Part shown: positions 19,188 to 43,912 of the stretch, one piece after another
Layout: every line of letters begins with the position of its first letter
How positions within the stretch are numbered: the stretch's first letter is position 1
Source of the DNA: Promethearchaeota archaeon
GTDB taxonomy: Archaea; Asgardarchaeota; Hermodarchaeia; Hermodarchaeales; Hermodarchaeaceae
Assembly (NCBI GenBank): GCA_048938385.1
Contig: JBHLMG010000009.1
Span: forward strand, 31,076 to 95,075
Reading direction: 5' to 3'
Length of the DNA stretch: 64,000 nt
Notes under the pieces: model-generated
The model's database searches: none
Told to the model about the DNA's origin: nothing
Seen by the model: only the letters and a program-made list of their open reading frames with translations
Translations under genes and position numbers: made by a program

Positions 19188-19331
19188 TATGATAGCCTCC
19201 AATCTGGGCGTTGCTAACCTAAACCTATGCCTCGTCTTAAAACCCTTTGGGTGTTTTGGAATGCTAAATCGAAATCCTTTGAATGTATTGCTCAAGTATT
19301 AGTACGAAAGATGCCTTCGGGGCTGGCATGT

Positions 19332-20548: not shown

Positions 20549-20746
20549 AAGCAGTCCTCCCTAAAGACGAGTTACCTTCAGAAGTGAAAAGGTAACCCTG
20601 AGTATTAAACTTTTCAACATCTTGAGCACCAAAACAACGCTTTTCCGGTTGGATGAGAAAAAATGAAACAGGTAGTCACACTTTTAAGCAGAATGGACAG
20701 AAAAGCGGGTCTAAGGTACTCAAGTCACCGTGACGAGGGTCCAACG

Positions 20747-21375: not shown

Positions 21376-21381
21376 GAGAAA

Positions 21382-21717: not shown

Positions 21718-21737
21718 CCCTGGGGTGAACGAGAAAA

Positions 21738-23888
21738 ATGCTACCTTACGCTGCTTGGCTTTGTTGGGGATTCCCCCTGCTAGGGGCTGTCCTCACACCG
21801 CTCTTTGCAAAAATCCATCCAAAGCTTCGGGATTACGGAGCCATCGTCTTTGGCTTACTAGGCATGATCATGGCCTTCTCCATGATTCCATTCATTTATT
21901 CTGGAGATGCCTGGCTTGGGACTCAATGGCTAGAAATTTCTATTCCTTGGATTAACATCCCAGGTGTTCTTACACTGGAATGGGGAATGCTCATTGACCC
22001 GTTATCCGTTTTCATGGCCTGTGTAGCAACCGGTGTCAGCTTCCTCATCCTTGTATACAGCCTTGGTTACATGCACGGTGATGAATCGCTCACTCGTTAC
22101 TGGTTTTTCATGCAACTGTTCATTGGTGGAATGGTTCTCCTTGTTATGGCGAACAACCTCCTCCAAACTTTCATTGGCTGGGAAATCGTAGGGCTCTGCT
22201 CCTACGCCCTCATCGGCTTCTGGTACAACAAGCCCAACATGGTTATAGACGATCAACTAGGTGAAATCACCGAAGGAAGGCTAAACTCACACAGTGGTAT
22301 GAAAGCCTTCATCGTTACCCGTGTTGGAGATGTCGCCCTCCTTATTGCCATCGTCTTTATCTTCTTCTTCACTGTTCAAGCAGGAACTCCCACCTTCAAC
22401 TACCAAGTTCTCCTTTCAGACTTCACCTGGCTTGGAACCATGGCTCAGGCGATTAGTGCTTTTCCTGGCCTATTACTATTCGTGGTGTTCCTCCTCTTCT
22501 TTCTGGGACCCATTGGAAAAAGCGCGCAATTCCCCTTACAGTTCTGGCTCCCGGAAGCCATGGCAGGTCCAACCACCGTCTCCGCCTTGATCCACGCTGC
22601 TGCAATGGTCAAAGCTGGTGTCTATCTGGTTGCTCGAATGGCCCCAATCCTTGTACAGGGCTTCCACACGGTAGCGATCGCAACAGCTATTGTTCAACAG
22701 GCTCTTAGCAACTTCTTCTATGTTATCGCCATAATCGGGACTTTCACCGCTTTTATGGCGGCAAGCATGGCTTTGGTCTCTAAGGAGCTCAAGAAGGTTC
22801 TTGCTTTCAGCACCATTAGCCAACTCGGTTATATGTTCATGGCAATTGGTGTGTTCGCCATCGCTGCTGAAGGAGCAGCAGGATACGCTGCGGGGGTCTT
22901 CCATTTAGCTGCCCATGCTGTCTTTAAAGCACTCCTCTTCTTGTCCGCAGGGGCTGTGCTCCACGCAGTTCATAGCAAATACATGACGGATATGGGCGGG
23001 ATCCGAAAAGCAATGCCGATTACCTTTATTGTAATGATCATTGGTGCTCTAGCCTTGAGTGGCTTCCCGCCCCTAGCAGGCTTTTGGAGCAAGGAAGCCA
23101 TCTTTTCTGCTGCCTGGGAATTGGGAGTTATGGGCAACATGACAGGTTACATCTTCCTCCTCTTCGCTGCCCTAACTGGTGTATTGACCTTCTTCTACAG
23201 TCTTCGTATGATTGGTATGACCTTCCTTGGTTCACCAAGTGAGAATGTTGAGAAACTAGCTGCAGAAGGGAAACCTGTGCATGAAGCGCCCCTAGTAATG
23301 TGGTTACCTTTAGTAATTCTTGCTATCACTACAGTGGTTCTTGGATTTCTTGAACCGTTCCTGAAGACATTCTTTCTAGGTGAATGGGCTCTTCAATTCT
23401 CAGGGATACCTCATGCTCCCCACATAGGTTCACTTATCGAGATGTATGTAGAACTCTTCGTTCACACCTTTACCTCACCCACATTCCTGATTACCCTTGG
23501 CGTGTTAGCCCTTGGCGGCATCCCCGGATACCTCATCTACATTCGCCAAAGTTGGACACCCGCAATTAGTGAGAAGAACTTCCTGTATCGGTTCTTATAC
23601 AAACGTTGGTACTGGAACGGGCTCATGTACAAGATCTTTGTCAGTGGCACTCTTTGGTTTTCACGGGGAATGTTCAAGACTGTTGAAGCAAAAGGCATCG
23701 ACCAGTTCAACTATGTTGTGGCTGATGGTGCCACAGGGCTAAGCCGCTGGTGGCGTCGAATTCAAACCGGTGTGCACAGCTGGAACATGATTCTGCTGCT
23801 CATTGGTGCTGTGGTCTTCGTAGCACTCCTCATCTTGTTTCAATTTGTAGGAGGCGTGCTACTTCTTCCAATTCCCTTCATACCCTGA
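21738..23888 (+). CDS. NuoL-like antiporter subunit
   Basis: FIGWEIVGLCSY, KAFIVTRVGD, GKSAQFPLQFWLPEAMAGPTTVSALIHAA, long C-terminal lateral-helix region. Confidence 0.92.
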   Translation: MLPYAAWLCWGFPLLGAVLTPLFAKIHPKLRDYGAIVFGLLGMIMAFSMIPFIYSGDAWLGTQWLEISIPWINIPGVLTLEWGMLIDPLSVFMACVATGVSFLILVYSLGYMHGDESLTRYWFFMQLFIGGMVLLVMANNLLQTFIGWEIVGLCSYALIGFWYNKPNMVIDDQLGEITEGRLNSHSGMKAFIVTRVGDVALLIAIVFIFFFTVQAGTPTFNYQVLLSDFTWLGTMAQAISAFPGLLLFVVFLLFFLGPIGKSAQFPLQFWLPEAMAGPTTVSALIHAAAMVKAGVYLVARMAPILVQGFHTVAIATAIVQQALSNFFYVIAIIGTFTAFMAASMALVSKELKKVLAFSTISQLGYMFMAIGVFAIAAEGAAGYAAGVFHLAAHAVFKALLFLSAGAVLHAVHSKYMTDMGGIRKAMPITFIVMIIGALALSGFPPLAGFWSKEAIFSAAWELGVMGNMTGYIFLLFAALTGVLTFFYSLRMIGMTFLGSPSENVEKLAAEGKPVHEAPLVMWLPLVILAITTVVLGFLEPFLKTFFLGEWALQFSGIPHAPHIGSLIEMYVELFVHTFTSPTFLITLGVLALGGIPGYLIYIRQSWTPAISEKNFLYRFLYKRWYWNGLMYKIFVSGTLWFSRGMFKTVEAKGIDQFNYVVADGATGLSRWWRRIQTGVHSWNMILLLIGAVVFVALLILFQFVGGVLLLPIPFIP

Positions 23889-23899
23889 GGTGACACAAA

Positions 23900-25408
23900 A
23901 TGGCACTATTCCACTATCTCTCATTCACGCTGTTGCTCATGTTCATCGGTGCTCCAATCGCCTGGATCATTGGGCGCCGTAACGGTCGCTGGGCAGGTGT
24001 CTTTGCCCTTCTTATCATGCTAGTCAGTATGGTCACCTTTGGTCTTGCCTGGTGGGAAACGCAACTTGCCGGCACCTATATGGAAGAATTCGTTTTGACC
24101 CCCACGCTAGGACCGTTTGGCTGGTACCTTGACGGATTGAGTTCTGTCGTAGGCTGGATCATCCTCTTCCTTACTACTGCTGCAACCTGCTATTCCATCG
24201 CCTACATGGCGAAAGAACATGGCCAATCCCGGTTCTTTGCATTACTTCTCATGTATAACGCTGGCATCCTCGGTGTCGTGTTGGCAACGAACCTATTTGA
24301 GTTCTACATCCTTTGGGAAATCATGCTCATACCCAGCTACTTCCTTATTGCAGAATGGGGTACTAAACCCCAATCCACAAAAATCGCCCTCAAATACTTC
24401 ATCTTTACACACATTGGTGCTGTGCTAATTCTCGTTGGTATCGCCGGCATCTATTCACTGAGCAGTCCTGCTAGCCTAAACTTGTTTTCGACACTGGTTT
24501 CAACAATTGACCTCAGTGGGTCTATGACTGTGGGAACGCTAGCCTTCGATTTAGCTCGCATCATCACAGTTCTCTTAACAATTGGGTTCGCTGTTAAGAT
24601 GGCTATCTTTCCCTTGCACACCTGGCTCCCCGATGCCCATGCCGAAGCTCCGACGCCTATTAGCGTCATCTTATCTGGCGTGATGATTGAAACCGCTGCT
24701 TACGCAATCATTCGAATCTTGATGACCTTCATGCTTCCTGCGTATGGAAGCTTCAGCACCATTCTCATGTTCTTTGGACTCATAACCATGATTTATGGTG
24801 GTATAATGGCTCTAGCCCAAAAGGATACCAAACGCCTTTTCGCCTACTCGTCAGTGTCACAAATGGGCTACATTTTCTTTGGTGTAGGCACAGCCCTTCT
24901 GATTGGAACCGTTGGAGCCGCCTTTCACATCTTTACACACGCCCTAGGTAAAGGCCTCTTGTTTATGACTGCTGGCGTCCTCATCGTTCAAATTGGCCAT
25001 GAACGGGGACGGGATATTACGGCTATGGGCGGTTTAGGGCGCAAGATGCCTTGGACTGCCACCATTGCTCTCATCGCAGGCTTAAGCATCGCTGGCACAC
25101 CACCCCTCGCCGGGTTCGCTTCAGAGTTCTGGATCTTTGTGGGCGGAGCCCTCGGTTATGCTGTCTTAATGTTAATCTTTGCTGTTGCCTCCACTGCACT
25201 TACAGCTTCATACATACTCTGGTTTGTGAAGCGTGTATTCTTCGGTCCTACCCCCGCAGATCTTGAGAAAGTTACAGACAGCCCATTACTCATGCGTATC
25301 CCTATGATCATCCTTGCGCTCCTGATCATCATCTTAGGAGTATGGCCCGCATTAGTACTTGATCCACTATATCAGGCACTGAGTTTGCTTCCTACCCTGG
25401 TCCCATAA
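23900..25408 (+). CDS. NuoM-like antiporter subunit
   Basis: LWEIMLIP, AVKMAIFPLHTWLPDAHAEAPTP, AYSSVSQMG, GFASEF. Confidence 0.9.
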   Translation: MALFHYLSFTLLLMFIGAPIAWIIGRRNGRWAGVFALLIMLVSMVTFGLAWWETQLAGTYMEEFVLTPTLGPFGWYLDGLSSVVGWIILFLTTAATCYSIAYMAKEHGQSRFFALLLMYNAGILGVVLATNLFEFYILWEIMLIPSYFLIAEWGTKPQSTKIALKYFIFTHIGAVLILVGIAGIYSLSSPASLNLFSTLVSTIDLSGSMTVGTLAFDLARIITVLLTIGFAVKMAIFPLHTWLPDAHAEAPTPISVILSGVMIETAAYAIIRILMTFMLPAYGSFSTILMFFGLITMIYGGIMALAQKDTKRLFAYSSVSQMGYIFFGVGTALLIGTVGAAFHIFTHALGKGLLFMTAGVLIVQIGHERGRDITAMGGLGRKMPWTATIALIAGLSIAGTPPLAGFASEFWIFVGGALGYAVLMLIFAVASTALTASYILWFVKRVFFGPTPADLEKVTDSPLLMRIPMIILALLIIILGVWPALVLDPLYQALSLLPTLVP

Positions 25409-25424
25409 TGGAGGTTGAAATGAG

Positions 25425-27005
25425 ATGGCTATCGGAATAAATGAATGGATTCAACTCATCCCCCTCTGGTTACCTCTCGTCGGCGCACTCTTCCTCGCGC
25501 TCATCGGTCGACTCACAAAAGAACGAAACAAAGTGCTCCTTGGGGCAATCTCTGTCGTAATTTTGTTCATTGCCCTCTGGTTCCTCATTTCACCCTTTCC
25601 GCCCTTTCAAGGACTCTACTTCCAGCTCGTCAACGCTGGTTTCACTCCTATTGATATCGTCTACTTCGTGACAACGCCACTGGACCCAAGCATAGGAGCC
25701 GCCTTCTTGCGAATCGACATTCTCTCTGTCTTCATGTCTGTCATCTTCATATTCTTAGGCTTCTTCGTCGCCCTCTACTCCATTAAGTACATGGAACATG
25801 ACACTCGGTTATCCATCTACTATGCCCTTCTCCTCACACTCGTTGGAGGAATGGTGGGGGTCACCATGGCAGGCGATTTCTTCACATTGTTCATCCTTTG
25901 GGAAACGATGTCAATAAGCAGCTATGTTTTAGTCGCCTTCCGGAAAGACGAAGCAGAACCTCTTGAAGCCGGCATCAAGTACCTCTTTCTTAGCGCTGTG
26001 GGTTCCACGCTCATCCTCTTCACCATGTCACTTCTCTACGGGCTCACAGGCACTTTGAATATCTACCAAATCGGTCCAGCACTTTCTTTGATCGTTGGAG
26101 GCGCCACTCCTGGTTCTCCAATCCAGGGCCTTCTCCTCATCACCATCGTTGGTCTCATCATCGGGTTCGGCGTCAAAGCGGCAATTGCTCCACTTTCCAC
26201 CTGGCTTCCAGACGCCCATCCTGCTGCTCCTAGTGGCATCAGTGCCATGCTCAGCGGCGTCGTCATCATGACAGGTGCTTATGCTATTATTCGCACACTT
26301 ATCCTCTTCTATAATCCCGCGGACTTTCCCTACTATGGGGCCGTAGTCAGCTGGTTTGCCCTCTTCACCATGATCTATGGAAACCTCATGGCACTGACAC
26401 AAAAGGATCTGAAACGGCTTCTAGCCTATTCAACTATAGTAAATGTCGGTTACATCATCTACGGGTTCAGTATTGCGATGATGCAGGTAGCTCAGCCTGC
26501 CCAACTCACCTCCGTCACAGGAAGCCTGTTCCACATTACAGCCCATATGCTCTCAAAGGGCATGCTCTTCTTGATCTCAGGAATTTTCTTACACTCTCTA
26601 CATACCCGGGATCTCGATAAACTCCGCGGCGTAGGTCGTAAAATGCCACTGACCATACTCTGTTTGACGATTGGTGCTCTGTCCCTTGCAGGGGTACCTC
26701 CCCTCATCGGATTCTATAGCAAATTCTTCATCATTTGGGGCGCCATCCAAGCAGGTGCATACATTGCCACAATCATCCTGGTGCTCATGAGCGCGTTCAG
26801 CGTAGTCTATTACTTACGCATTATCCAAGTCCTCGTCTTCGCCGAGCCCAGCCCTGAGGCTGCCACCGTCAAACCCACACACCCAATCCTTCTATTTGTT
26901 ATCAGCGTACTCACAATCTTCATCATCGGTATCGGGCTGTTTCCCGGCTTCTTCATTGAAGTAGCCGAATTTGCCGCTCAAGGTGCTCTTGGGCTGCTTC
27001 CCTAA
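25425..27005 (+). CDS. NuoN/MrpD-like antiporter subunit
   Basis: LWETMSISSY, EAGIKY, GVKAAIAP..WLPDAH, KRLLAYST, GFYSKF. Confidence 0.88.
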   Translation: MAIGINEWIQLIPLWLPLVGALFLALIGRLTKERNKVLLGAISVVILFIALWFLISPFPPFQGLYFQLVNAGFTPIDIVYFVTTPLDPSIGAAFLRIDILSVFMSVIFIFLGFFVALYSIKYMEHDTRLSIYYALLLTLVGGMVGVTMAGDFFTLFILWETMSISSYVLVAFRKDEAEPLEAGIKYLFLSAVGSTLILFTMSLLYGLTGTLNIYQIGPALSLIVGGATPGSPIQGLLLITIVGLIIGFGVKAAIAPLSTWLPDAHPAAPSGISAMLSGVVIMTGAYAIIRTLILFYNPADFPYYGAVVSWFALFTMIYGNLMALTQKDLKRLLAYSTIVNVGYIIYGFSIAMMQVAQPAQLTSVTGSLFHITAHMLSKGMLFLISGIFLHSLHTRDLDKLRGVGRKMPLTILCLTIGALSLAGVPPLIGFYSKFFIIWGAIQAGAYIATIILVLMSAFSVVYYLRIIQVLVFAEPSPEAATVKPTHPILLFVISVLTIFIIGIGLFPGFFIEVAEFAAQGALGLLP

Positions 27006-28827: not shown

Positions 28828-30783
28828 ATGAATACAGAGTTAATGGTGAAAGCCGTGTCACCAATGCTGTCAGCGAAAATGAGCAGTTTTATTGCGATCA
28901 CACTAGATTTTGATGTTGACTCAGCACTTCGCCTTATTGCCCAAACTGGACTCGCTCATTTTTCAGACATCAAACAAAGCAGTCGCAATCTTTCACAAGG
29001 CCTAGAACCTGTGGAACCTTCAGAACGTTTCTATTATCTTTCCAATCTTCTAACCCGCACAACTACCCTCATCAATGATATGAAGGTCAATCGCGGTGGT
29101 AAAATTAAAAATCCTCTAAAGGTCCCTGAAATCCCTGAAGACAGCTATTTAGAATCCATCGAAACGAAACTTAAGAAAATCGAAGATGAATTCGAGGGCC
29201 ATACTCGTAGCTTAGAAATAGCTGCACGGAAAGAGGATAAAGCTTCCAAAAAAGAAGCTAAAAAACATATCAAAGAATTAACCGAAGAGAAACGTCTGGA
29301 GCTATTAGGCTGGGAAGAACTACTCAAACGTGAACACAGCTTGGAAGAGACTAAGACGCTCTTTTACAAAACAAAACGAACCTACATCATGTATGGCTGG
29401 ATTCCCACTAAGAAAATTAAATCTCTGGAGAAAGCTATTGCGCAACAAAAACAAGTCTCCCTTTCCATTGAATTCGAAGCACATAAAGACAAACCAGAAT
29501 CCGGTCACTATCCAGCTGATGTTGGTCCTCTCGAAGGGGAAGTTGCTCCAGAAGAACCAATTGCACCCCCGACAAAACAAACAAATCCCCGTTTTCTCCG
29601 ATCCTTCCAAAACCTTACAAACGCCTTCGGATTACCCAACCACCGTGAAATTGACCCCGCTTGGTTCATGGCACTCGGATTCCCCATAATCTTCGGCCTT
29701 ATGTTTGGCGACATCGGACATGGATTACTCCTCTTCGGTTTTGCTATGATTGGTATGATAGCAAAACGCCGCAATGTTGACGCTGGTGAAATGATCAATT
29801 ACTTCATTCAAGGATCTGGGCTCATCGCACTCATCGCTCTTGTCTCGGTCTTTTTTGGAGTATTATACGGTGAATTTCTTGGTATCGATATCACTTACCT
29901 TCCCATCTACCAGGCACTCAAATACTCACCCTTCGGGCAAGCAATGAAAAATGTCCTAGTCAACCTTTTTCTCTTCTTCGACTTTGATGGTGGAGTAAAT
30001 TGGTTCCTCGACCCGCATAGTCCTTACAACCTCTGGATCCTCGGTGATCCTCATGGTCACCCCACCCCTATCTGGTTCAGCGCCTTCGAAATGCCTGCTA
30101 ACCTCCCCGCCAACATCGCCAATCCTACCTGGATCCTTTTTGTCCTCAGCATCATTATCGGCTTCATCCACCTAAGCATTGCCATTGGGTTCGATGCCAT
30201 CAACAAGCTTCGCCACCGTGACTGGAAACACGCCATCTTCGGTCCCATCATCTGGCTCTATTTCCTATGGGGACTTGCCTTTATGATCTTTCAATTTGGA
30301 ATTAACTTCATGGCTTGGCCACTTATTGAAATGCTCATCGCGCTCATCCTCCCCGCTGTCATCATGTTCCTCGGAGGCATGGTCGCCTTCGGGTTCATGG
30401 ATGGCTTTATGGAAGGTCTCGAGCGTCTTATCGAGAGCATCAGTAACACCATCAGTTACTCTCGAATTCTTGCCCTCAACATGGCACATGCAGGCTTCGC
30501 TAAAACCTTCATCTTTCTCGCAGGCTTTACAGGAGCTGTTGAGCTTTTTAACATCCTCGAACAACTCTTCCCCGCTGGACAACTCAATTTCGGAACCTTC
30601 CTTACATTTATTGGCATGATCATTCTTGGCACTGTCTTCGTCCTCCTCATGGAAGGCCTCCTCTCGTTCATCCATACCCTTCGTCTCCACTGGGTGGAAG
30701 CTTACCTGAAATTCTACGCAGGGACCGGCTACGAGTACAAACCTCTCACCCTACCACAAAAATGGACGACAACGCCTACATAA
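28828..30783 (+). CDS. atpI: A/V-type ATP synthase subunit I (a)
   Basis: GWIP, P..EIDP, FGLMFGDIGHG, SNTISYSRILAL (essential Arg), HTLRLHWVE..KFY. Confidence 0.93.
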   Translation: MNTELMVKAVSPMLSAKMSSFIAITLDFDVDSALRLIAQTGLAHFSDIKQSSRNLSQGLEPVEPSERFYYLSNLLTRTTTLINDMKVNRGGKIKNPLKVPEIPEDSYLESIETKLKKIEDEFEGHTRSLEIAARKEDKASKKEAKKHIKELTEEKRLELLGWEELLKREHSLEETKTLFYKTKRTYIMYGWIPTKKIKSLEKAIAQQKQVSLSIEFEAHKDKPESGHYPADVGPLEGEVAPEEPIAPPTKQTNPRFLRSFQNLTNAFGLPNHREIDPAWFMALGFPIIFGLMFGDIGHGLLLFGFAMIGMIAKRRNVDAGEMINYFIQGSGLIALIALVSVFFGVLYGEFLGIDITYLPIYQALKYSPFGQAMKNVLVNLFLFFDFDGGVNWFLDPHSPYNLWILGDPHGHPTPIWFSAFEMPANLPANIANPTWILFVLSIIIGFIHLSIAIGFDAINKLRHRDWKHAIFGPIIWLYFLWGLAFMIFQFGINFMAWPLIEMLIALILPAVIMFLGGMVAFGFMDGFMEGLERLIESISNTISYSRILALNMAHAGFAKTFIFLAGFTGAVELFNILEQLFPAGQLNFGTFLTFIGMIILGTVFVLLMEGLLSFIHTLRLHWVEAYLKFYAGTGYEYKPLTLPQKWTTTPT

Positions 30784-30798: not shown

Positions 30799-33700
30799 AT
30801 GCTCCAACAACTCCTCCTTAACATGGGTCAAGTCTACACCGCATTTGGTGCTGTTCTCGCGGCTGGACTCGGAGCTGCAGGAGCTGCCATAGGCATCGGC
30901 TACAGTGGAAGCGCCATGATTAGCGCGGTAGCTGAAAAACCTCAATCCTTCAGTAAAAGCATGATCACAGTGGTTCTTGCTGAAGCTCTCGCTATCTATG
31001 GACTCCTCGCCAGTTTCATGCTTCTTATGCGCATCGGGACAATCACTAACGAAGCCCAAGGCCTCGTCGCTCTTGGTGCTGGACTGGCCATCGGTTTATC
31101 GTGCATTGGTGCTGGCATCGGTATCGCACGAGCAGGTAGCGCTATGGCGACAGGCACCGCAGCTGCCCCCGAAACTTTCAGCAAAGCCCTCGTCTCCGTC
31201 GTCCTCGCTGAGGCCCTTGCTATCTATGGGCTTCTCACTAGCTTTATGCTTCTTATGCGCGTCGAAACGGCATCCTACATCGGACAAGGTCTGGTAGCAA
31301 TCGCCGCAGGGTTAGGCATTGGGTTAGCAGCCCTCGGTGCTGGCGTCGGTATATCAAAAACTGGAGCAGCTCTCAACAAAGCCCTAGCTACTGCTCCTGA
31401 AACCTTCAGCAAAGGCTTAGTAGGCGTCGTGTTAGCCGAAGCCCTGGGTATCTACGGCTTGCTCTCGAGTTTCATGCTGCTCATGCGCATTGAAACCGTC
31501 ACACTCCAAAGCCAAGGATTCATAGCAATCGCTGCTGCCTTCGGTGTAGGACTGGCTGCCCTTGGTGCTGGCATTGGTATCGCGTCGAGCGGGGCCTCGT
31601 TATCAGAAAGCCTGACCAAACGCCCAGAAATCTTCAGTAAGGGTTTGGTCAGCGTCGTGTTAGCCGAAGCCCTAGGTATCTACGGCTTGCTCTCGAGTTT
31701 CATGCTGCTCATGCGCATTGAAACCGCTACAGCAATCGCTCAAGGACTAGCTGGAATTGGTGCTGGATTAGCTGTCGGAATCGCAGGTTTTGGGGCTGGT
31801 ATCGGTATTGCCCAAGCCGGTGGCGCACTCAGCAAAGCCCTCGTCGAAGCCCCTGAAGCCTTTAGTAAGGGTTTGGTCAGCGTCGTGTTAGCCGAAGCCC
31901 TGGGTATCTATGGGCTCTTAGCGAGCTTCATGTTGCTCATGCGCATCGAATCCGTCGCAATAGCGGCACAAGGATACCTTGCGGTTGCAGCAAGTCTAGG
32001 TGTAGGTTTAGCAGCATTCGGTGCTGGTATCGGTATCGCCTCCGCAGGAGCAGCCTTATCACAAAGCCTTGTCGATCGTCCTGAAGTATTCAGCAAGGGC
32101 TTGGTCAGCGTCGTGTTAGCCGAAGCCCTGGGTATCTATGGGCTCTTAGCGAGCTTCATGTTGCTCATGCGCATCGAATCCGTCACTGAAATCGGTCAAG
32201 GACTAGTGGGTTTATCTGCTGCACTTGCCATCGGACTTGCTGCAATTGGTGCAGGGTTTGGCATTGCCAAGGCAGGCGCGTCTATTAATAGAACACTTGT
32301 TGTCGCTCCTGAAGCCTTCAGTAAGGGTTTGGTCAGCGTCGTGTTAGCCGAAGCCCTGGGTATCTACGGGTTGTTAGCCAGCTTCATGTTGTTGATGCGT
32401 ATTGAGTCGGTCACAGGGATAGGTCAAGGCTTCATGGGAATGGCAGCCGCTATCTCGGTTGGTATTGCTGGTATTGGCGCGGGTATCGGTATAGCTTTTG
32501 CAGGCCAGGCACTTTCGCAAAGCCTTGGTGAGCGGCCTGAAATCTTCAGTAAAGGTCTAATCGGCGTCGTTCTCGCTGAAGCTCTCGCCATCTATGGTTT
32601 ACTGGCAGGTTTCATGTTGCTGATGCGTATCGACACGATTAACATCGATATCAGTATAGGTATGAGTCAAGGCGTCGTCGGAATTGGCGGGGGCATCGCA
32701 ATTGGGCTCGCGGCATTTGGTGCGGGAATTGGCATTGCCCAAGCAGGCGCAAGCATGTCTCGCACGATCGTTCACGCTCCTGAAACCTTCAGTAAAGGCC
32801 TCGTCAGCGTAGTGTTAGCAGAGGCACTTGGCATCTATGGATTACTAACGAGTTTCATGTTGTTAATGCGAATAGATTCTGTAACTCAAATCGGTCAAAG
32901 TATCATTGCAATTGGTGCTGGACTTGCCATTGGCTTGGCCGCGTTAGGTGCTGGTCTTGGTATTGCGGCCGCTGGCGCTGCCTTGTCACGAAGTCTCGCA
33001 GCACGACCTGAAGTTTTCAGTAAGGGTTTGGTCAGCGTCGTGTTAGCCGAAGCCCTGGGTATCTATGGGCTCTTAGCGAGCTTCATGTTGCTCATGCGCA
33101 TCGAATCCGTGGTTGATTTGACTCCTGGGTTACTTGCCATAGGTGCAAGTGTTAGTATCGGCCTCGCTGCCATTGGGGCGGGTATTGGTATTGCATCAAG
33201 TGGATCTGCTTTATCCGAAGGATTAGTGCATCGCCCTGAGATTTTCAGTAAAGGCTTGGTAGCCGTTGTTTTAGCCGAAGCCCTTGGAATTTACGGACTA
33301 CTTTCAAGCTTCATGCTTCTGATGCGAATAGAAACCGCAACAGCAATTGGTCAAGGCATGGTTGGCATTGGAGCTGGCGCAGCCATTGGGCTGGCAGCAA
33401 TTGGTGGAGGTGTCGGAATTGCTTTATCTGGTGCTGCACTCAGCCACAGTCTTGTAGATGCTCCTGAAGCTTTCTCCAAGGGCTTGGTGAGTGTTGTACT
33501 GGCTGAGGCGCTTGGGATTTATGGCCTATTGATGAGTTTTATGTTAATTATGCGAATTGATACAGTGACCGATCCCAGTCAGGGGTTGATGGCTCTTGGC
33601 ACAGCAGTAGCGGTGGGATTTGCGTGTTTTGGAGCTGGGTTTGGTATTGCTCACGCAGGTTCGGCTCTCGCTAGGACTATCGCCTCGGAGCCAGGCTCTT

Positions 33701-34242
33701 TCAGTAAGGGGTTGGTGGCGGTGGTGTTGGCGGAGGCCCTTGGGATATATGGATTGCTGGTGGGATTTATGGTGGTTATGCGTGTGGAATCGGCCCTATT
33801 GTTAGCACAAGGATGGCTAGCAATTGGTGCAGGGTTGGCCATTGGTATAGCGGGAATTGGGGGCGGTTTGGGTATTGGCTATTCGGGTGGAGCACTGTGT
33901 ACAAGTATTCGATCGGCCCCGGAGACTTTCAGTAAGGGGTTGGTGGCGGTGGTGTTGGCGGAGGCCCTTGGGATATATGGATTACTGACATCATTTATGT
34001 TAGTAATGCGGTTGGATGCAATTGGGGATATTGGTGCATTTATCGGGGTTGCTGCAGCTGCAACGGTCGGATTGGGGACTTTGATGGCAGGGATTGCGAT
34101 TGGTTGGGCTGGGGCAGGATTAATTGGTGGGATTGCGAAGAAACCGGGGATTTTTAGCAAATCGATGGTGCCAGTTGTGCTTGCCGAGGCGCTTGCTATT
34201 TATGCGTTGTTAGTAGCCTTTATGCTTATAATGCGTATTTAA
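30799..34242 (+). CDS. atpK: A/V-type ATP synthase subunit K (c) with 15 fused hairpins
   Basis: 15 copies of a Gly-rich inner helix, xPE/xPG loop and FSKxxxxVVLAEAL(G/A)IYxLL..FM outer helix, ~76-aa period; begins 16 bp after atpI. Confidence 0.95.
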   Translation: MLQQLLLNMGQVYTAFGAVLAAGLGAAGAAIGIGYSGSAMISAVAEKPQSFSKSMITVVLAEALAIYGLLASFMLLMRIGTITNEAQGLVALGAGLAIGLSCIGAGIGIARAGSAMATGTAAAPETFSKALVSVVLAEALAIYGLLTSFMLLMRVETASYIGQGLVAIAAGLGIGLAALGAGVGISKTGAALNKALATAPETFSKGLVGVVLAEALGIYGLLSSFMLLMRIETVTLQSQGFIAIAAAFGVGLAALGAGIGIASSGASLSESLTKRPEIFSKGLVSVVLAEALGIYGLLSSFMLLMRIETATAIAQGLAGIGAGLAVGIAGFGAGIGIAQAGGALSKALVEAPEAFSKGLVSVVLAEALGIYGLLASFMLLMRIESVAIAAQGYLAVAASLGVGLAAFGAGIGIASAGAALSQSLVDRPEVFSKGLVSVVLAEALGIYGLLASFMLLMRIESVTEIGQGLVGLSAALAIGLAAIGAGFGIAKAGASINRTLVVAPEAFSKGLVSVVLAEALGIYGLLASFMLLMRIESVTGIGQGFMGMAAAISVGIAGIGAGIGIAFAGQALSQSLGERPEIFSKGLIGVVLAEALAIYGLLAGFMLLMRIDTINIDISIGMSQGVVGIGGGIAIGLAAFGAGIGIAQAGASMSRTIVHAPETFSKGLVSVVLAEALGIYGLLTSFMLLMRIDSVTQIGQSIIAIGAGLAIGLAALGAGLGIAAAGAALSRSLAARPEVFSKGLVSVVLAEALGIYGLLASFMLLMRIESVVDLTPGLLAIGASVSIGLAAIGAGIGIASSGSALSEGLVHRPEIFSKGLVAVVLAEALGIYGLLSSFMLLMRIETATAIGQGMVGIGAGAAIGLAAIGGGVGIALSGAALSHSLVDAPEAFSKGLVSVVLAEALGIYGLLMSFMLIMRIDTVTDPSQGLMALGTAVAVGFACFGAGFGIAHAGSALARTIASEPGSFSKGLVAVVLAEALGIYGLLVGFMVVMRVESALLLAQGWLAIGAGLAIGIAGIGGGLGIGYSGGALCTSIRSAPETFSKGLVAVVLAEALGIYGLLTSFMLVMRLDAIGDIGAFIGVAAAATVGLGTLMAGIAIGWAGAGLIGGIAKKPGIFSKSMVPVVLAEALAIYALLVAFMLIMRI
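30799..34242 (+). repeat. Intragenic ~228-bp tandem repeat, 15 units
   Basis: Units 5 and 6 share an identical 84-bp segment 228 bp apart (31873-31956/32101-32184); units 5 and 10 share 92 identical bp (31864-31955/33019-33110). Confidence 0.9.
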
Positions 34243-37743: not shown

Positions 37744-38130
37744 TTATTTTTGTGAGGTTATTCGTGCGTTGAAGCTTTTCCGTGCCTCAATGTTAGCGAA
37801 GGGTTCGAGGTGCACGACAGTATACTCCTCGACCTCTTCCTCGTTGTCGCTGTGTTTTTCATGAAGAATTAGGTAGGTGCTAACACCTTCTCTCACGGAA
37901 AGATAGGCCATGCGTTTGTCAAGAGTTAACAGAGACCAACCTTGCTGTTTGGCATATCCAATGATTTCTTCATCGGTGTGTCCAATGAGATCAGGATAAT
38001 CGTGAACTGAGTGACACTGCCAGTTTTCAGATTGTAATAGTTGGTAGAGTTGTCCACTAAGAGTTTTCGAGGATGTACTCAAATTCTCATCAAAGATAAT
38101 TTCTTTTCGTGTCACAGGGAGCACCTTCAA
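37744..38130 (-). CDS. PIN-like domain protein (DUF5615/Mut7-C type)
   Basis: IIFDENL, TDEEIIGYA, LLTLDK acidic motifs. Confidence 0.78.
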   Translation of the reverse strand: MKVLPVTRKEIIFDENLSTSSKTLSGQLYQLLQSENWQCHSVHDYPDLIGHTDEEIIGYAKQQGWSLLTLDKRMAYLSVREGVSTYLILHEKHSDNEEEVEEYTVVHLEPFANIEARKSFNARITSQK

Positions 38131-38137: not shown

Positions 38138-39187
38138 TTATAGAATAAGAACTCGAAGTATGATATTTGGATCTAGCTGGTCAGCTTTACCGTTCATTAA
38201 GGCTTTGAGATTAAGTATCTCATACCATTTCAGGTTGAGGTATCCAAGCACAATGCCAAAATGGAATGGGTATCCAAGAAGTGCATCGACACTTGTTCTG
38301 CGGATTTCCTCATGAAAGACCTTTTCAAAGGTGTACAAATTCTGGTATTGCTCATAGGCTTCCCAACTTTGACCAATCATGTATCCATAGCTGCTTTCTT
38401 GGAGTTTTTGAACACGCTCTTCGAAGTTTCTTGTATGAATGGCTTCTTTGCAAAGGGTCAGTGGAAGCCGGTGTTCGACTTGGAGAAGGAGGTTTTCTGC
38501 ATCCCTGGAATCTATCCCCAGAAAGTGGGTACGAAGGGTAGTCATGAAGTTAATGAGATCAATTTCTATGCCTACTAGTTTAGATGTAACTTCTCGATCA
38601 AGACCGTTCAGTTTATTAGCTTCGCGGTAGAGGTTTTCAAGAATTACAGCATCAATTGCCTGCTCAACAACAACGAGTCGTCCAGTTTTTTCATATTGCG
38701 GTAAAAGATCTACAACAAGTTGTTGGAAATATTGGTCAGGGAGGTTAGTGACAAGTTCTCTCAAGTCTTTTGCATTTAAAAGTTTGAGAAGCACTTCGGT
38801 CGTGAAGGGTGACACAGGGATGAGTAGACGCTCTGCAGTTTCTTGATCTTTTTCGGTTACAAAAAGGCGAAGTAGTGGTTTCACAACTTCACGTTGGAAT
38901 TTTCGATTGATCCAATTCATTATTGGCTGCAACGCTTTAGGGATATCTTCGTAAATTTCTGTGAGTACACGGTTGAAGTCTAACTTGAGAGCTTGTTCCA
39001 CCTCAATTGGAGAAGCCTTCTCGTCGAAATCTTTTATGATTTCAGAGTAACTAGTTGCATCCAAAACTCGGAGGGCGGCGTTCATATCTCGGGCGCCAAG
39101 AAGCGCATCCCAATGTTCCTTGGTTAACATGTCAGCTTTAAATCCACGAATTTTCGCGTTAATGAAGCTGTACTTCGCGACAGACAT
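38138..39187 (-). CDS. atpC: A/V-type ATP synthase subunit C (d)
   Basis: YSFINAKIRG, EIDLINF..LR, GYLNLKWYEILNLKAL; 349 aa. Confidence 0.88.
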   Translation of the reverse strand: MSVAKYSFINAKIRGFKADMLTKEHWDALLGARDMNAALRVLDATSYSEIIKDFDEKASPIEVEQALKLDFNRVLTEIYEDIPKALQPIMNWINRKFQREVVKPLLRLFVTEKDQETAERLLIPVSPFTTEVLLKLLNAKDLRELVTNLPDQYFQQLVVDLLPQYEKTGRLVVVEQAIDAVILENLYREANKLNGLDREVTSKLVGIEIDLINFMTTLRTHFLGIDSRDAENLLLQVEHRLPLTLCKEAIHTRNFEERVQKLQESSYGYMIGQSWEAYEQYQNLYTFEKVFHEEIRRTSVDALLGYPFHFGIVLGYLNLKWYEILNLKALMNGKADQLDPNIILRVLIL

Positions 39188-39999: not shown

Positions 40000-40335
40000 G
40001 TGTCTACGATGAGCGAGGTTCTTACTGGTGTGCAAAAAGCTGAGGCAGATGCCGTTCAAATTCTTGAAAAGGCTCAAACACAAGTTGAACAAATTCAGCG
40101 AGAGGCAGAGAGAAAGGCTCGGGGCATGGATCAGGTTGTTCGAGCTGAACTCACGGAAGAGATTAACGCTTTGCAAAAAAGTGTTGAAGGTAAAGCCAAA
40201 ATTCAGGCCCAGAAAATTCTCTCCAACGCTGACAATGAAGTTACTGAATTAGAGGAACAAGGAAAGAAGAATACGAAAAAAACTGTCGATTTCATTATTA
40301 AGGCGGTTTATACCTTCGGAGGTGGAAGAGACTGA
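40000..40335 (+). CDS. atpH: A/V-type ATP synthase subunit H (G), peripheral stalk
   Basis: 111-aa Ala/Glu/Lys coiled coil (VQKAEADAVQILEKA) upstream of atpE. Confidence 0.78.
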   Translation: MSTMSEVLTGVQKAEADAVQILEKAQTQVEQIQREAERKARGMDQVVRAELTEEINALQKSVEGKAKIQAQKILSNADNEVTELEEQGKKNTKKTVDFIIKAVYTFGGGRD

Positions 40336-40985
40336 GCGAAACTTCTGCCGCTGAGAGAATTCAGCGAACTATTGTGAATGAAGCAAAGAAGGTAGCGAAG
40401 AAGATGATTGATAATGCAGAAGTCTCTGCCCGCCAGCTTACCGAACAAGCAATAGAAAATACTAGAGCAAATTTGGCCGGATGGGCGGATAGACGCCGTC
40501 AAATGGCCCAAGATGCTAGCGAGCGTATAATTGGCAAAGCTCGTAATGATGCTCACATGAAGATTCTTGATGCTAAAGCACAACTTATTAACAATGCGTT
40601 TGAAGAAACTAAGAAAAAATTCGAAAAGGAACATAACACGGCCCAATACAAGACCTTCTTGAAGAATCTCATTATCAATGCTGGAATTCAAATTGGTGGC
40701 AGTGAGGTTGTTGTTATGACACGGAAAGAAGATCAAACTACTGTTTCAGCATTTAAAGGCCTTGCAACTGCAATCTCTAAAGAAATAGGGCAAAGCGTCA
40801 AGGTGACTGTGTCCAAGCGATCCATGGAGATGCTAGGCGGTGTTTTCGTTCAAAACAAAGATGGAAATATTACCGTTGATTATCGAATTGATACGCTGCT
40901 TGATGAAGTAGCTCGTCAACGACGAAATGAAATCGCAAAAATCCTCTTCGCTGCGGAAATGAAAACTGAACAGATCAGCGCATAG
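40332..40985 (+). CDS. atpE: A/V-type ATP synthase subunit E (probable CTG start)
   Basis: N-terminal coiled coil, MLGGVFV..DGNITVDYRIDTLL..IAKILF; in-frame CTG at 40332 after GGAGGTGG and overlapping the atpH TGA. Confidence 0.88.
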   Translation: MSETSAAERIQRTIVNEAKKVAKKMIDNAEVSARQLTEQAIENTRANLAGWADRRRQMAQDASERIIGKARNDAHMKILDAKAQLINNAFEETKKKFEKEHNTAQYKTFLKNLIINAGIQIGGSEVVVMTRKEDQTTVSAFKGLATAISKEIGQSVKVTVSKRSMEMLGGVFVQNKDGNITVDYRIDTLLDEVARQRRNEIAKILFAAEMKTEQISA

Positions 40986-41089: not shown

Positions 41090-43912
41090 ATGGATGTGTC
41101 CTTGACGACTGAAACGCCATTCCCCCATACCCAGGATGCATCTGCAGTTATGGAGCAGCTCCAAGTTACCGAGAAGGGTTTAGGTAACGCCGAAGCAAAG
41201 CAGCGTCTCTCTTATTACGGCTTAAATGAATTAGAGGTCGTCAAGGGTCCTGGACCATTATCTATGTTTTTTTCTCAATTCAAGGACATTCTCGTCATTA
41301 TCTTGATCTTTGCTGCCGTCATCTCTGGGCTCATCGCCATTTGGACCATGGAACTTCCAATTGATACCATTGTCATCATGGTGATCGTTATCATCAACGC
41401 AGTCATGGGATTCTCACAAGAATACCGAGCTGAGAAATCCATCGAAGCCTTAAAGGAAATGGCCGCTCCTCAAGCTCACTTGCTACGTGATGGAGAGCCA
41501 ATTGATGCTCCAGCCCGTGAGGTAGTTCCTGGCGATCTCCTTCGCCTTGAAACAGGAGATCGACTACCGGCAGATGCGCGCCTTATCGAATCACATAATC
41601 TGTACACGGATGAAGCCTCACTTACTGGCGAATCAATGCCTGTGAAAAAAACAGCTATGATGACACTTGACCGAAACATCCCGCTAGCTGATCGGTCGAA
41701 CATGGTTCATTCAGGTACCATCATTACTTCAGGTCGGGGACTAGCCGTTGTCACACAAACCGGGATGAGGACAGAAATTGGTCGTATAGCTACTATGATT
41801 CAAACAGCTGACACAAAAGAAACGCCACAACAAAAACGAATGCGCCGTTTAGGTAAACAACTTGGATTTGCAATCCTTATAATCTGCATGATTGTGTTGA
41901 CCGTCCAAGTTGCAGTAAACTGGTTAATGGCGTCTCTTGATTTTAACACATTCATTGTCCTCTTTACTATCGCAGTTGCTTTGGCTGTAGCCGCAATCCC
42001 TGAAGGACTTCCTGCAGTCGTAACTATAACTCTAGCTCTTGGTGTCCAACGGATGGTTCGACGAAATGCAATTATCCGACGGCTCCCTGCGGTTGAAACT
42101 CTTGGGGCTGCTGATATCATCTGTTCGGATAAAACGGGAACGCTAACTAAAGATGAAATGACAGTCCGTGAAATCTATGTTCCAGGCCAGAGTTATGAGG
42201 TCACCGGGGCTGGATATTCCCCTGAAGGTGAGTTTATCTACAATGGGAATACAATAGACCCGCTTCAAAATCCTCAGCTGACTCTTCTCGTGCGTATCGG
42301 TCGTCTATGCAACAACGCCCAAGTTCGACAGGTTAACAGTACATGGGAGGTAGTGGGCGATCCAACTGAAGGGGCTTTAGTCGTTGCCGCCCAAAAAGCA
42401 GGGCTTACTGACCAACTACTCAACGAGTTTCCCCGAATTGCTGAACTGCCTTTCGACCCTGAACGCAAAAGAATGGCTACCTTACATGATAGCCCGAGCC
42501 AAGAAACTCTAGCGTATGTGAAGGGTGCTCCTGAATTAATACTTGAAGAAAGCACTCATGTCTTCGCTGAAAATGGAGTACGCCCCCTAACCGAAGAGGA
42601 CCGAGCAGAAATTCTGGGAAGTAATGACCGTATGGCAAATAAAGCTCTTCGTGTGCTTGGAATGGCCTACCGAATCTGTCCTGAAGACCTCTGCGATATT
42701 TCACCAGAAGGTGTAGAGCATGATTTAGTCTTCGTCGGGTTAATGGGCATGATGGATCCTCCCCGACCTGAAGTCTACGACGCCATTAAAACAGCACGTG
42801 GAGCAGGTATCAATTCTGTCATGATTACTGGAGATAATCAATACACTGCAGTTGCTGTAGCCAATGAGCTTGGAATGTTTGAAGAAGATGATGTTGTATT
42901 GACGGGTGAGGCACTTGACGCCTTATCCGATGAAGATCTTACAGATGCAGCTTCTCAAATTCGCGTCTATGCACGTGTATCTCCTGAACACAAACTTCGT
43001 ATCGTTAAAGCGCTAAAAAATCGTGGACATATAGCCGCGATGACAGGTGACGGTGTGAATGATGCCCCAGCACTAAAGTACGCTGATATCGGTATATCCA
43101 TGGGAATCACTGGAACAGATGTGACGAAAGAAGCTTCTGACATGATTTTAACTGATGATAACTACGCCTCAATTGTTAATGCCATCGAAGAAGGGCGTGG
43201 AATTAGCGATAACACACGAAAATTCGTATCTTATCTCTTATCCTGTAACGCTGGAGAAATTTTAGTGATTTTTTTGGCTAGCATCACTCTCTCCGTGCTG
43301 TTTCGATGGCCCCTCCCGCTATTAGCTATTCAAATTCTTTTCGTTAATCTGGTCACAGATGGATTACCCGCACTTGCGCTAGGTATGGATCCGATGGAAC
43401 CTGATGTAATGCAACGCGGACCTAGAGACCCCAAGGAAGGCGTTATCACAAAACGGGTTTGGATATTGATTTGGGTAGTGGGACTCACTATAGCTTTCGC
43501 ATCCCTTGGCATTTACGCTTTCGAAATGGCATACCTCACAGGTCCCCCGCTCTATCTCAGTTCCGAGGTGGCTTGGTATCGTGCTAGTACTTTGGCCTTC
43601 ACAGTTTTAGTAATGACTCAGATGGTTCACGCCTTGAATTCTCGTTCTGGTCATCTATCTCTATTCCAAGTGGGATTTCTGAAAAATCGTCTTCTCCTTT
43701 TAGCCATTAGCGTATCTATTATCCTTCACATCACCATACTCTATGTTCCTTTCCTCTCTGCGGTATTCAATACGGTACCACTCTATCCCCTCGACTGGAT
43801 AATCGTAATACTACTCTCCCTTTCGGTGTTCCTTGTTGTTGAAGTATTCAAGTTCCTCATCCGCTTCCAACAAAAAAGAAAAACTGACAACTTGGAGACG
43901 AAAGCACAATAA
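41090..43912 (+). CDS. P-type Ca2+-transporting ATPase (P2A, SERCA/PMR1-like)
   Basis: [42 protein letters not shown]. Confidence 0.93.

What the first reader, a model, noticed from the sequence alone, without database searches (positions are those of the whole stretch)
30799..34242. Single-gene 15-hairpin ATP synthase rotor: a candidate monomeric c15 ring
Seen: atpK encodes 1147 aa containing exactly 15 c-subunit hairpins. Each has a unique inner helix, and each keeps the carrier Glu in VVLAEAL. There are no internal stops. Known: c subunits usually have 1-3 hairpins; eukaryotic V-type 4-TM subunits keep Glu in only one of their two hairpins; the long-fusion precedent I know is the 13-hairpin subunit of Methanopyrus kandleri; c15 rings built from single-hairpin monomers occur in some cyanobacterial F-ATPases. 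Inference: one polypeptide folds into the whole rotor, genetically fixing 15 sites per 3 ATP, or 5 ions/ATP. That lowers the threshold ion-motive force to roughly 105-125 mV for a phosphorylation potential of 50-60 kJ/mol, which would suit an energy-starved anaerobe. I cannot confirm novelty without a database search.
Basis: partly seen in the sequence, partly recalled or inferred. Interest (0 to 1): 0.95.

Follow-up and report, generated by a model that had tools for sequence, protein, structure and literature searches.

The report
Fifteen-hairpin single-gene ATPase rotor, Asgard archaeon
An Asgard archaeon from sediment encodes the proton-carrying rotor of its only rotary ATPase as one 113-kDa protein of 15 fused, all-active hairpins. 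That is two more than the 13-hairpin Methanopyrus subunit, the longest fused form named in the papers I read, and it probably fixes the cost at 5 protons per ATP.

Summary
Window 30799-34242 (+) is one open frame of 1147 aa with 15 PF00137 hairpins, each carrying the carrier Glu in VVLAEAL.

- **Not an assembly artefact.** The units are about 75% identical as DNA. The longest exact repeat is 92 nt. Five other species-level genomes carry 1148-1149-aa frames with 15 hairpins at nearly the same spacing and no other proteolipid gene.
- **Organism and enzyme.** It is an Asgard archaeon (Thor-like, labelled Promethearchaeota) with a single A/V-ATPase gene set.
- **Restricted distribution.** Of 400 genomes in the phylum, only this family exceeds 7 hairpins. 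At the same locus, relatives carry 8 hairpins, or 7 + 3 in two genes.
- **Origin.** The first two and last three hairpins are shared between forms. Seven internal hairpins were added.
- **Selection.** Outer helices are kept by purifying selection.
- **Ion.** The site is H+-type.
- **No larger case found.** Database searches found nothing above 15, and the papers I could search still cite 13.

What is not shown is that one copy closes the ring. The AlphaFold model was weak and came without coordinates. A monomeric c15 ring (5 H+/ATP) is the best reading, at about 0.6.

Earlier notes of this scan cover this same stretch only, not other DNA.

The parts
28828..30783 (+). A/V-ATPase subunit I (stator a subunit), 651 aa. 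It keeps the conserved Arg motif SYSRILALNMAH at residue 543.
   Evidence: PF01496, E 6.3e-55; motif found.
30799..34242 (+). atpK: 1147-aa proteolipid of 15 fused hairpins (112.6 kDa, GRAVY 1.17). An alternative start lies at Met9 (nt 30823).
   Evidence: 15 PF00137 stretches; 15 VVLAEAL motifs.
30799..31263 (+). N-terminal cap, hairpins 1-2. They are positional orthologues of hairpins 1-2 of the 8-hairpin and 7-hairpin relatives.
   Evidence: Unit identity tables. In the unit tree the first hairpins of all forms make one clade with support 95/74.
31264..33558 (+). Internal hairpins 3-12. Loop types APE and RPE alternate, and seven of these units are extra relative to the 8-hairpin form. Hairpin 9 (32632-32874) carries a 5-residue longer linker. 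Hairpins 5, 6 and 10 share an 83-92-nt identical stretch in the outer-helix coding part.
   Evidence: Repeat periods of 228 and 456 nt.
33559..34239 (+). C-terminal cap, hairpins 13-15. They are positional orthologues of the last three hairpins of the 8-hairpin and 7-hairpin forms.
   Evidence: Unit tree clades: last 97/94, penultimate 99/91, antepenultimate 97/71 with an inner 98/88.
38138..39187 (-). A/V-ATPase subunit C (d, AC39), the socket between the central stalk and the ring.
   Evidence: PF01992, E 1.4e-54.
40000..40335 (+). Probable peripheral-stalk subunit G/H. The match is weak.
   Evidence: PF03179, 24.5 bits, below the cut-off of 28.6.
40374..40985 (+). A/V-ATPase subunit E (peripheral stalk).
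   Evidence: PF01991, E 2.7e-26.

Best explanation
atpK encodes the complete membrane rotor of this Asgard archaeon's only A/V-type ATPase as one polypeptide. Fifteen helical hairpins sit side by side, and hairpin 15 packs against hairpin 1 to close a 30-helix ring. Each outer helix offers one protonatable Glu to the Arg of stator subunit I, so one turn carries 15 H+ and makes 3 ATP, which is 5 H+ per ATP. The outside of the ring is kept uniform because every hairpin must pass the same stator. The inner helices and loops are free to differ, which gives each position its own identity. The array grew inside this family by adding seven internal hairpins, mostly as two-hairpin modules, to an 8-hairpin-like ancestor, while the specialised end hairpins were kept. 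Shown here: the gene, the 15 conserved sites, that it is the sole rotor gene, its conservation, and its origin. Inferred: that a single copy closes the ring, H+ coupling, and use as a synthase at low proton-motive force.
For: 1. There are 15 PF00137 hairpins with 15 Glu in one frame.
2. It is the only PF00137 gene in the genome. The genome has one set of A, B, D and F, found on other contigs, and C, E and I lie in the window.
3. Five further species-level genomes have exactly 15 hairpins in one 1148-1149-aa frame and no other match. All 15 Glu motifs are kept, with the same spacing apart from a u8-u9 step of 80 or 81.
4. Outer helices are 87% identical as protein, yet only 41% of codons for identical residues are themselves identical. 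Every site is therefore held by selection rather than only by DNA homogenisation.
5. Two consecutive hairpins align in one stretch with solved ring-forming four-helix V-ATPase c subunits and with E. hirae NtpK, so the linker length fits neighbours in a ring.
6. Solved or measured A/V rings have 12 protomers in T. thermophilus, whose chains are 73-102 aa (PMC3639240). From my own knowledge, E. hirae and eukaryotic V rings have 20 hairpins. Fifteen lies inside that range and 30 lies outside it.
7. The site reads E-A-L-[G/A]-I-Y. It lacks the E-[ST]-[STQ]-x-x-Y sodium motif defined in the supplement of PMC11738941 and in 10.64898/2026.10.01.756066, so it is H+-type. 
8. Subunit C of an 8-hairpin sister genome is 72% identical to this one, against 59-61% in other 15-hairpin genomes. 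The socket subunit does not track the hairpin count per gene. That fits similar ring sizes, 15 versus 2 x 8 = 16.
Against: Ring closure by a single copy was not tested. The AlphaFold2 model is of low confidence (pLDDT 60, pTM 0.60) and comes without coordinates. Sister genomes carry 8 hairpins, or 7 + 3, at the same locus. Some proteolipids of this family therefore very likely oligomerise, so this one could too: 15 x 2 = 30, 8 x 4 = 32 and (7 + 3) x 3 = 30 are also numerically consistent. Subunit I sequences of the two 8-hairpin genomes cluster together, which could reflect adaptation to a different ring. There are no protein or RNA data. The genome is 89.8% complete, so a second proteolipid gene on unassembled DNA cannot be fully excluded.
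Confidence: 0.6

Rival explanations
1. The 15-hairpin polypeptide is a building block rather than the whole ring. Two copies, or a copy plus another proteolipid, would assemble into a much larger ring of about 30 hairpins and about 10 H+ per ATP.
For: Relatives with 8 or 7 + 3 hairpins at the same locus very likely oligomerise. First and last hairpins form conserved clades in all forms, so the same end-to-end seam could join different chains. The totals 30, 32 and 30 are mutually consistent.
Against: No rotary ATPase ring with more than 20 hairpins is known to me (background knowledge; PMC3639240 gives 12 protomers for T. thermophilus and 15 for Spirulina). No forms between 8 and 15 hairpins were seen in this family. 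That is what one would expect if 15 alone and 2 x 8 give about the same ring. A ratio of 10 H+ per ATP would be extreme.
Confidence: 0.17
2. The long precursor is cut at the conserved MRI|E/D junctions into single or double hairpins, which then assemble as a conventional ring of unknown size.
For: Every junction has the same ...LMRI-(E/D)-(S/T) sequence, and the protein ends exactly at ...MRI. Unit boundaries therefore equal a natural C-terminus.
Against: Each position keeps its own inner helix and pairs with the same-numbered unit in an orthologue that is 80% identical. This is most easily explained if order matters, that is, if the chain stays intact. No processing of this kind is described for A/V proteolipids in the papers read. 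Linkers are only about 7-9 residues, as in uncut four-helix V-type c subunits.
Confidence: 0.07
3. The ring is a monomeric c15, but the enzyme runs mainly as an ATP-driven proton pump in a fermentative cell, not as a synthase tuned to low proton-motive force.
For: Many Asgard archaea are predicted to be fermenters (abstract of PMC9723677). A/V-type enzymes are reversible.
Against: A high H+/ATP ratio limits the force a pump can build. A complex-I-like (Nuo/Fpo-type) ion pump with an FrhB/FpoF-like subunit is encoded just upstream, so a chemiosmotic source for ATP synthesis exists.
Confidence: 0.25
4. The array is an assembly or binning artefact, or a decaying pseudogene.
For: k = 31 contigs break inside the gene, and none bridges the whole array. 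One relative's gene is interrupted by a run of N, and two others are split over contig ends.
Against: The units are about 75% identical as DNA and the longest exact repeat is 92 nt. Depth is near-even over most of the gene, though several bins rise about 2.5-fold and one falls to 4.5. Six genomes in all have the same 15-unit frame with nearly the same spacing. There is strong purifying selection.
Confidence: 0.02

Closest known systems
Methanopyrus kandleri A-ATPase subunit K: 13 fused hairpins, 1021 aa, deduced to be a monomeric rotor (Lolkema & Boekema 2003, cited in PMC3639240 and 10.64898/2026.10.01.756066)
   Same: It is one gene with many hairpins. My unit profile counts 13 hairpins in the Methanopyrus sp. 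KOL6 protein P0027. The same sequence-based deduction that one chain makes the ring applies.
   Different: This protein has 15 hairpins, giving 5.0 rather than 4.3 ions per ATP. Identity to the Methanopyrus proteins is only 29-32%, whereas units within this protein are 40-76% identical to each other. The rest of the Asgard phylum has 1-7 hairpin matches per genome, almost all 1-3. The array therefore arose independently. The host is a mesophilic-sediment Asgard archaeon, not a hyperthermophilic methanogen.
Eukaryotic V-ATPase proteolipids c and c'' (e.g. PDB 6xbw, 6vq6, 3j9t)
   Same: They are the closest solved sequences (E 5e-16 to 1e-12). Two neighbouring hairpins align end to end with the four-helix c subunit. 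The site context ...EA.AIYG.. is similar.
   Different: V-type subunits keep the Glu in only one of their two hairpins (PMC3639240) and form rings from about 10 separate chains. Here every hairpin keeps the Glu and all are in one chain.
Thermus thermophilus V/A-ATPase K (L) ring, 12 single hairpins (PDB 6qum, 5gar; PMC3639240)
   Same: It is an A/V-type enzyme with an H+ site on every hairpin, and its ring size (12) is of the same order.
   Different: It has twelve separate identical chains and 4 H+ per ATP, with no positional identity within the ring.
Spirulina (Arthrospira) platensis F-type c15 ring (PMC3639240)
   Same: It has 15 sites per turn and 5 H+ per ATP.
   Different: It is F-type and made of 15 identical single-hairpin monomers, so the stoichiometry is set by packing and not by the gene.
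Proteolipids with 8 hairpins, or 7 + 3 hairpins, of the same Asgard family (P0008-P0016; L019)
   Same: They occupy the same locus (Nuo-like genes, CysRS, I, K). Their first and last hairpins are orthologous, and the outer helix is the same.
   Different: They have fewer hairpins per gene. The 3-hairpin protein carries an N-terminal domain of about 310 aa that is probably extracellular. These forms very likely need more than one chain per ring.

Membership tests
A/V/F-ATPase proteolipid (subunit K/c, PF00137) | Hairpin domain matches PF00137 above the curated cut-off | tested here: met
   15 stretches, 717 bits against a cut-off of 24; each stretch scores 56-67 bits in the genome scan.
A/V/F-ATPase proteolipid (subunit K/c, PF00137) | [quoted passage not shown] | tested here: met
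   Glu is invariant in all 15 units. All 15 are kept in six relatives' genomes and four database orthologues.
A/V/F-ATPase proteolipid (subunit K/c, PF00137) | Gly-rich inner helix | tested here: met
   G23 and G37 are invariant; G28, G30 and G32 are nearly invariant in the unit alignment.
A/V/F-ATPase proteolipid (subunit K/c, PF00137) | Encoded next to the stator subunit I/a that carries the essential Arg, in a genome with a full enzyme set | tested here: met
   Subunit I ends 15 nt upstream and has the SYSRILALNMAH motif. A, B and F, D, and C and E are present.
A/V/F-ATPase proteolipid (subunit K/c, PF00137) | Forms a closed ring in the membrane | not testable with these tools
   The AlphaFold2 model has 30 transmembrane helices in 15 helix pairs, some outer helices being drawn broken, with pLDDT 60 and pTM 0.60. 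No coordinates are returned.
Single-chain (monomeric) multi-hairpin rotor, Methanopyrus type | About 12 or more hairpins in one reading frame, all with a carboxylate | tested here: met
   15 of 15.
Single-chain (monomeric) multi-hairpin rotor, Methanopyrus type | No other proteolipid gene in the genome | tested here: met
   All 15 matches in the own genome lie in this gene (genome 89.8% complete). The same holds in five relatives.
Single-chain (monomeric) multi-hairpin rotor, Methanopyrus type | Common descent of the fused array with the Methanopyrus gene | tested here: not met
   Identity to the Methanopyrus proteins is 29-32%, below the 40-76% identity between units. Only this family in 400 genomes of the phylum has more than 7 hairpin matches. 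It is an analogue that arose independently.
Single-chain (monomeric) multi-hairpin rotor, Methanopyrus type | One chain per ring, shown physically | not testable with these tools
   This needs native mass spectrometry or cryo-EM. As far as I know, it is also only a deduction for Methanopyrus (PMC3639240 says 'presumably').
V-type four-helix proteolipid with one site per two hairpins | Loss of the carboxylate in every second hairpin | tested here: not met
   All 15 hairpins keep the Glu.
Na+-binding c/K subunits | Q/E in helix 1 plus E-[ST]-[STQ]-x-x-Y in helix 2 (PMC11738941 supplement; 10.64898/2026.10.01.756066) | tested here: not met
   All units read E-A-L-[G/A]-I-Y, and no conserved Q/E occurs in the membrane part of helix 1. 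The site is predicted to bind H+.

The most novel reading that the evidence does not exclude
This family is a natural experiment in hard-coding rotor stoichiometry. Closely related Asgard archaea write the same rotor as 15 x 1, 8 x 2 or 7 + 3 (+...) hairpins. The 15-hairpin form would be a true single-chain, internally asymmetric c15 ring. It would have the highest ion/ATP ratio (5.0) inferred for any A/V-type enzyme, and it would sit in the lineage closest to eukaryotes, with V-ATPase-like hairpins. Because each position is genetically addressable, it would allow direct tests of what sets ring size and of how many sites a rotor needs.
Probability: 0.5. Interest if true: 0.8.

Novelty: new variant of a known kind. 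Interest (0 to 1): 0.72.

Why it matters
The number of ion sites on the rotor sets the ion cost of ATP, and what fixes that number is still debated. Here the number is written in the gene. Fifteen is above the 13 of Methanopyrus, which an October 2026 preprint still cites as the most-fused c subunit and as the highest ratio (4.3) inferred for A-type enzymes. [quoted passage not shown] This would be such a case, in Asgard archaea, and sister genomes carry 8-hairpin and 7 + 3-hairpin versions for comparison. A single-chain ring also lets each site be mutated separately. Until now that has required engineered fusions.

Tried and rejected
- **Structure.** AlphaFold2 on the 6-sequence alignment gave pLDDT 60 and pTM 0.60 with no coordinates, so ring closure could not be judged. 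I did not run fold searches on such a weak model. Complex prediction was not used: the protein exceeds its 1000-residue limit, and fragment pairs would pass merely by likeness to solved rings.
- **Expression.** No RNA holder was listed.
- **Reads.** The Logan contigs laid on the gene do not bridge the whole array, because they break at repeats of 31 nt or more. No long-read run was available.
- **Apparent intermediate forms.** The '11-hairpin' protein P0007 is a 15-hairpin gene interrupted by a run of N. The '10 matches' in G106, and the split gene in G100, are contig breaks. The '10 matches' in G108 and G109 are two genes of 7 + 3 hairpins. No real form between 8 and 15 hairpins was found.
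- **Larger proteins.** A search for proteins above 2008 aa found none, which is weak evidence.
- **Gene-fusion origin.** I tested whether 15 arose as an end-to-end fusion of two 8-hairpin genes (8 + 7). The middle hairpins 6-9 do not resemble end-cap hairpins, so I rejected this.
- **Second rotor gene.** G107 holds both a 15-hairpin and an 8-hairpin locus, but both have the same flanking genes. I read this as a mixed bin, not as two rotors in one cell.
- **Literature.** Searches for Asgard or Thorarchaeota multi-hairpin proteolipids found nothing. The library lacks most subscription journals.
Full report
**Observation**

Window 30799-34242 (+) is one open frame of 1147 aa. Pfam finds 15 separate PF00137 (ATP-synt_C) stretches, E 1.4e-221. 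The motif VVLAEAL, which holds the carrier Glu, occurs exactly 15 times. Twelve of the 14 spacings are 76 residues; the u8-u9 spacing is 81 and the last is 75.

The unit alignment shows an invariant P..FSK...VVLAEAL.IY.LL..FM..MR outer half and a variable, Gly-rich inner half. For units 2-14 the inner helix is 52% identical between units and the outer helix 87%. The protein is 112.6 kDa with GRAVY 1.17. The database copy starts at Met9 and has 1139 aa. This does not affect the count.

**Is the array real?**

The units are only about 75% identical as DNA, with repeat periods of 228 and 456 nt. The longest exact repeat is 92 nt, shared by the outer-helix parts of hairpins 5, 6 and 10.

Contigs of four sediment metagenome runs match at 99% or better, with no differing letters listed. 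These runs come from one study and may be the source of the assembly. Depth is near-even over most of the gene, though several bins rise about 2.5-fold and one falls to 4.5. The contigs break at repeats of 31 nt or more, so none bridges the whole gene.

The stronger evidence comes from other genomes:
- Five other species-level genomes of the same genus (G094, G098, G102, G104, G105) each have exactly 15 PF00137 matches inside one 1148-1149-aa frame, with no other match.
- G107 also has a full frame.
- All keep the 15 Glu motifs at the same spacing, including the longer 80-81-residue step between hairpins 8 and 9.
- Database orthologues at 80-90% identity align without gaps over all 1147 columns.

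Three apparent exceptions are artefacts. P0007 (829 aa) is interrupted by a run of N. G106 and G100 are split at contig ends.

**Organism and context**

The closest database proteins are labelled Promethearchaeota archaeon, and the 8-hairpin relatives are labelled Thorarchaeota. The genome is a 2.48-Mb, 51-contig assembly, 89.8% complete.

The gene follows subunit I by 15 nt (PF01496). Subunit I keeps the stator Arg motif SYSRILALNMAH. Subunit C, a weak G/H-like ORF and subunit E lie 4-7 kb downstream. F, A and B are on contig C18, and D is on C23.

There is thus one dispersed but complete A/V-ATPase gene set, and this is its only proteolipid gene. Just upstream lie complex-I-like genes (homologues of NuoB, C, J, K, L, M and N), an FrhB/FpoF-like protein, Mtd and HypD. 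A membrane ion pump is therefore encoded next to the rotor.

**Distribution**

In 400 genomes of the phylum, 348 have PF00137 matches, almost all with 1-3 hairpins. Only the window's family reaches more than 7.

Inside that family the same locus comes in three forms. The locus is defined by the order: Nuo-like genes, CysRS on the opposite strand, I, then K.
- 15 hairpins in one gene.
- 8 hairpins in one gene of 630-644 aa.
- In genus g2, two genes: one of 7 hairpins, and one with an N-terminal region of about 310 aa rich in N-x-S/T, plus 3 hairpins.

No form between 8 and 15 was found.

A tree of the flanking proteins NuoM, NuoN and CysRS places the 8-hairpin genomes G095 and G101 among the 15-hairpin genomes. 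In the subunit I tree these two group together. The I-K module therefore has its own history, by recombination or by co-adaptation.

**How the array arose**

Unit-by-unit identities and a unit tree give these groupings:
- The first hairpins of the 15-, 8-, 7- and 3-hairpin proteins form one clade (95/74).
- The last hairpins form one clade (97/94).
- The penultimate hairpins form one clade (99/91).
- The antepenultimate hairpins form one clade (97/71, with an inner 98/88).

Each unit of this protein pairs with the same-numbered unit of an orthologue that is 80% identical. Loop types read cap-A-A-R-[A-R-A-R-A-R-R]-A-x-A-cap, against cap-A-A-R-A-R-A-cap in one 8-hairpin protein.

So seven internal hairpins were added, mostly as two-hairpin A-R modules, which explains the 456-nt period. 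The end hairpins were kept. An end-to-end fusion of two 8-hairpin genes is not supported, because the middle hairpins do not resemble end caps.

The array is independent of Methanopyrus. Identity to the Methanopyrus proteins is 29-32%, against 40-76% between this protein's own units.

**Selection**

In the outer helix, residues are 87% identical between units, but only 41% of codons for identical residues are the same. The figure for the inner helix is 34%. The uniform outer face is therefore maintained by selection on each of the 15 sites. Local gene conversion or recent duplication is visible only among hairpins 3-7 and 10, and between 13 and 14.

**Ion**

All sites read E-A-L-[G/A]-I-Y and lack the E-[ST]-[STQ]-x-x-Y sodium motif (rules from the supplement of PMC11738941 and section 2.3 of 10.64898/2026.10.01.756066). 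The prediction is H+.

The closest solved sequences are eukaryotic V-ATPase c'' and c, followed by E. hirae NtpK and T. thermophilus K.

**Does one chain make the ring?**

This is inferred, not shown.

In favour:
- It is the sole proteolipid gene.
- Pairs of neighbouring hairpins align in one stretch with ring-forming four-helix c subunits, so the linkers fit side-by-side packing.
- Known A/V rings span 12 protomers in T. thermophilus (PMC3639240; chains of 73-102 aa) to 20 hairpins in E. hirae and eukaryotic V-type enzymes (my own knowledge). Fifteen fits that range and 30 does not.
- The family shows 8 and 15 but nothing in between, as expected if 2 x 8 = 16 and 1 x 15 give nearly the same ring.
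- Subunit C of the 8-hairpin genome G101 is 72% identical to this genome's, against 59-61% for other 15-hairpin genomes. Neighbouring housekeeping proteins are 57-77% identical in all the genus g1 genomes compared. The socket subunit does not track the per-gene hairpin count.

Against:
- The AlphaFold2 model is weak and no coordinates are returned: 30 transmembrane helices in 15 helix pairs, pLDDT 60, pTM 0.60.
- The 8-hairpin and 7 + 3 relatives show that oligomerisation very likely occurs in this family.
- Totals of 30-32 are also numerically self-consistent.

I put the monomeric c15 ring at about 0.6-0.65.

**Consequence**

With 15 sites per turn and three catalytic sites, the ratio is 5 H+ per ATP.

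**Comparison and novelty**

Reviews describe the Methanopyrus kandleri subunit, 13 fused hairpins, as the most-fused case (PMC3639240). An October 2026 preprint still cites its 4.3 ions per ATP as the highest ratio inferred for A-type enzymes. [quoted passage not shown]

The searches gave the following:
- Among proteins of 630-2008 aa, 71 fused proteolipids were found. The highest counts are 15 (this family only) and 13.
- None was found above 2008 aa.
- A scan of 1.84 billion representatives with a one-hairpin profile also gave 15 as the maximum.
- Subunits with 12-13 hairpins are in fact widespread in uncultured Nanoarchaeota/DPANN and other archaea, and 6-hairpin forms fused to PKD domains occur in Thermoplasmatota.

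I found no paper on multi-hairpin proteolipids in Asgard archaea. The library lacks most subscription journals.

**Verdict**

This is a new, independently evolved and larger variant of a known kind. It occurs in a lineage of special interest and comes with informative sister forms.

Noticed in passing
L019:1520-3139 (-) and L019:3156-4763 (-) (G109; the same arrangement in G108): In the sister genus the rotor is written as two genes. One has 7 hairpins. The other has a hydrophobic N-terminus, a region of about 310 aa rich in N-x-S/T that is probably extracellular and glycosylated, and then 3 hairpins. A rotor subunit carrying a large outside domain recalls the accessory proteins that sit in the eukaryotic V-ATPase ring. 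That comparison comes from my own knowledge and was not tested.
   Followed up: partly
P0017-P0048 and P0050-P0072: Single-gene proteolipids with 12-13 hairpins are widespread in metagenomic Nanoarchaeota/DPANN and 'Euryarchaeota archaeon' genomes. Some carry extra N-terminal domains (PF22619, PF22648). Thermoplasmatota have 6-hairpin forms fused to PKD domains. The literature read here mentions only Methanopyrus.
   Followed up: partly
window 16135-27005 (both strands): There is a complex-I-like gene set: NuoB and NuoC homologues on the minus strand at 18233-19295, and NuoJ, K, L, M and N homologues at 20663-27005. An FrhB/FpoF-like protein (16135-17181), Mtd (17299-18138) and HypD (14322-15452) lie beside it. 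This is a likely F420- or ferredoxin-driven ion pump encoded beside the rotor genes.
   Followed up: partly
L031:7671-8663 (+) (own genome, contig C18): A 330-aa ORF without any Pfam match sits between the ATPase A and B genes, in the order F-A-ORF-B.
   Followed up: no
L040 and L041 (G107 contigs C282 and C318): One genome bin holds both a 15-hairpin and an 8-hairpin version of the same syntenic I-K locus. It is most likely a mixed bin of two related populations.
   Followed up: partly
window 37744-38130 (-): A small PIN-like/DUF5615 ORF lies directly next to the subunit C gene.
   Followed up: no
window 41090-43912 (+): A 940-aa P-type cation ATPase (type II-like domains) lies just downstream of subunit E.
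   Followed up: no
window 28828-30783 versus L037 and L038: In a tree, subunit I of the two 8-hairpin genomes forms its own clade (100/99), although the flanking genes place these genomes apart. The I-K pair seems to move or co-evolve as a module.
   Followed up: partly
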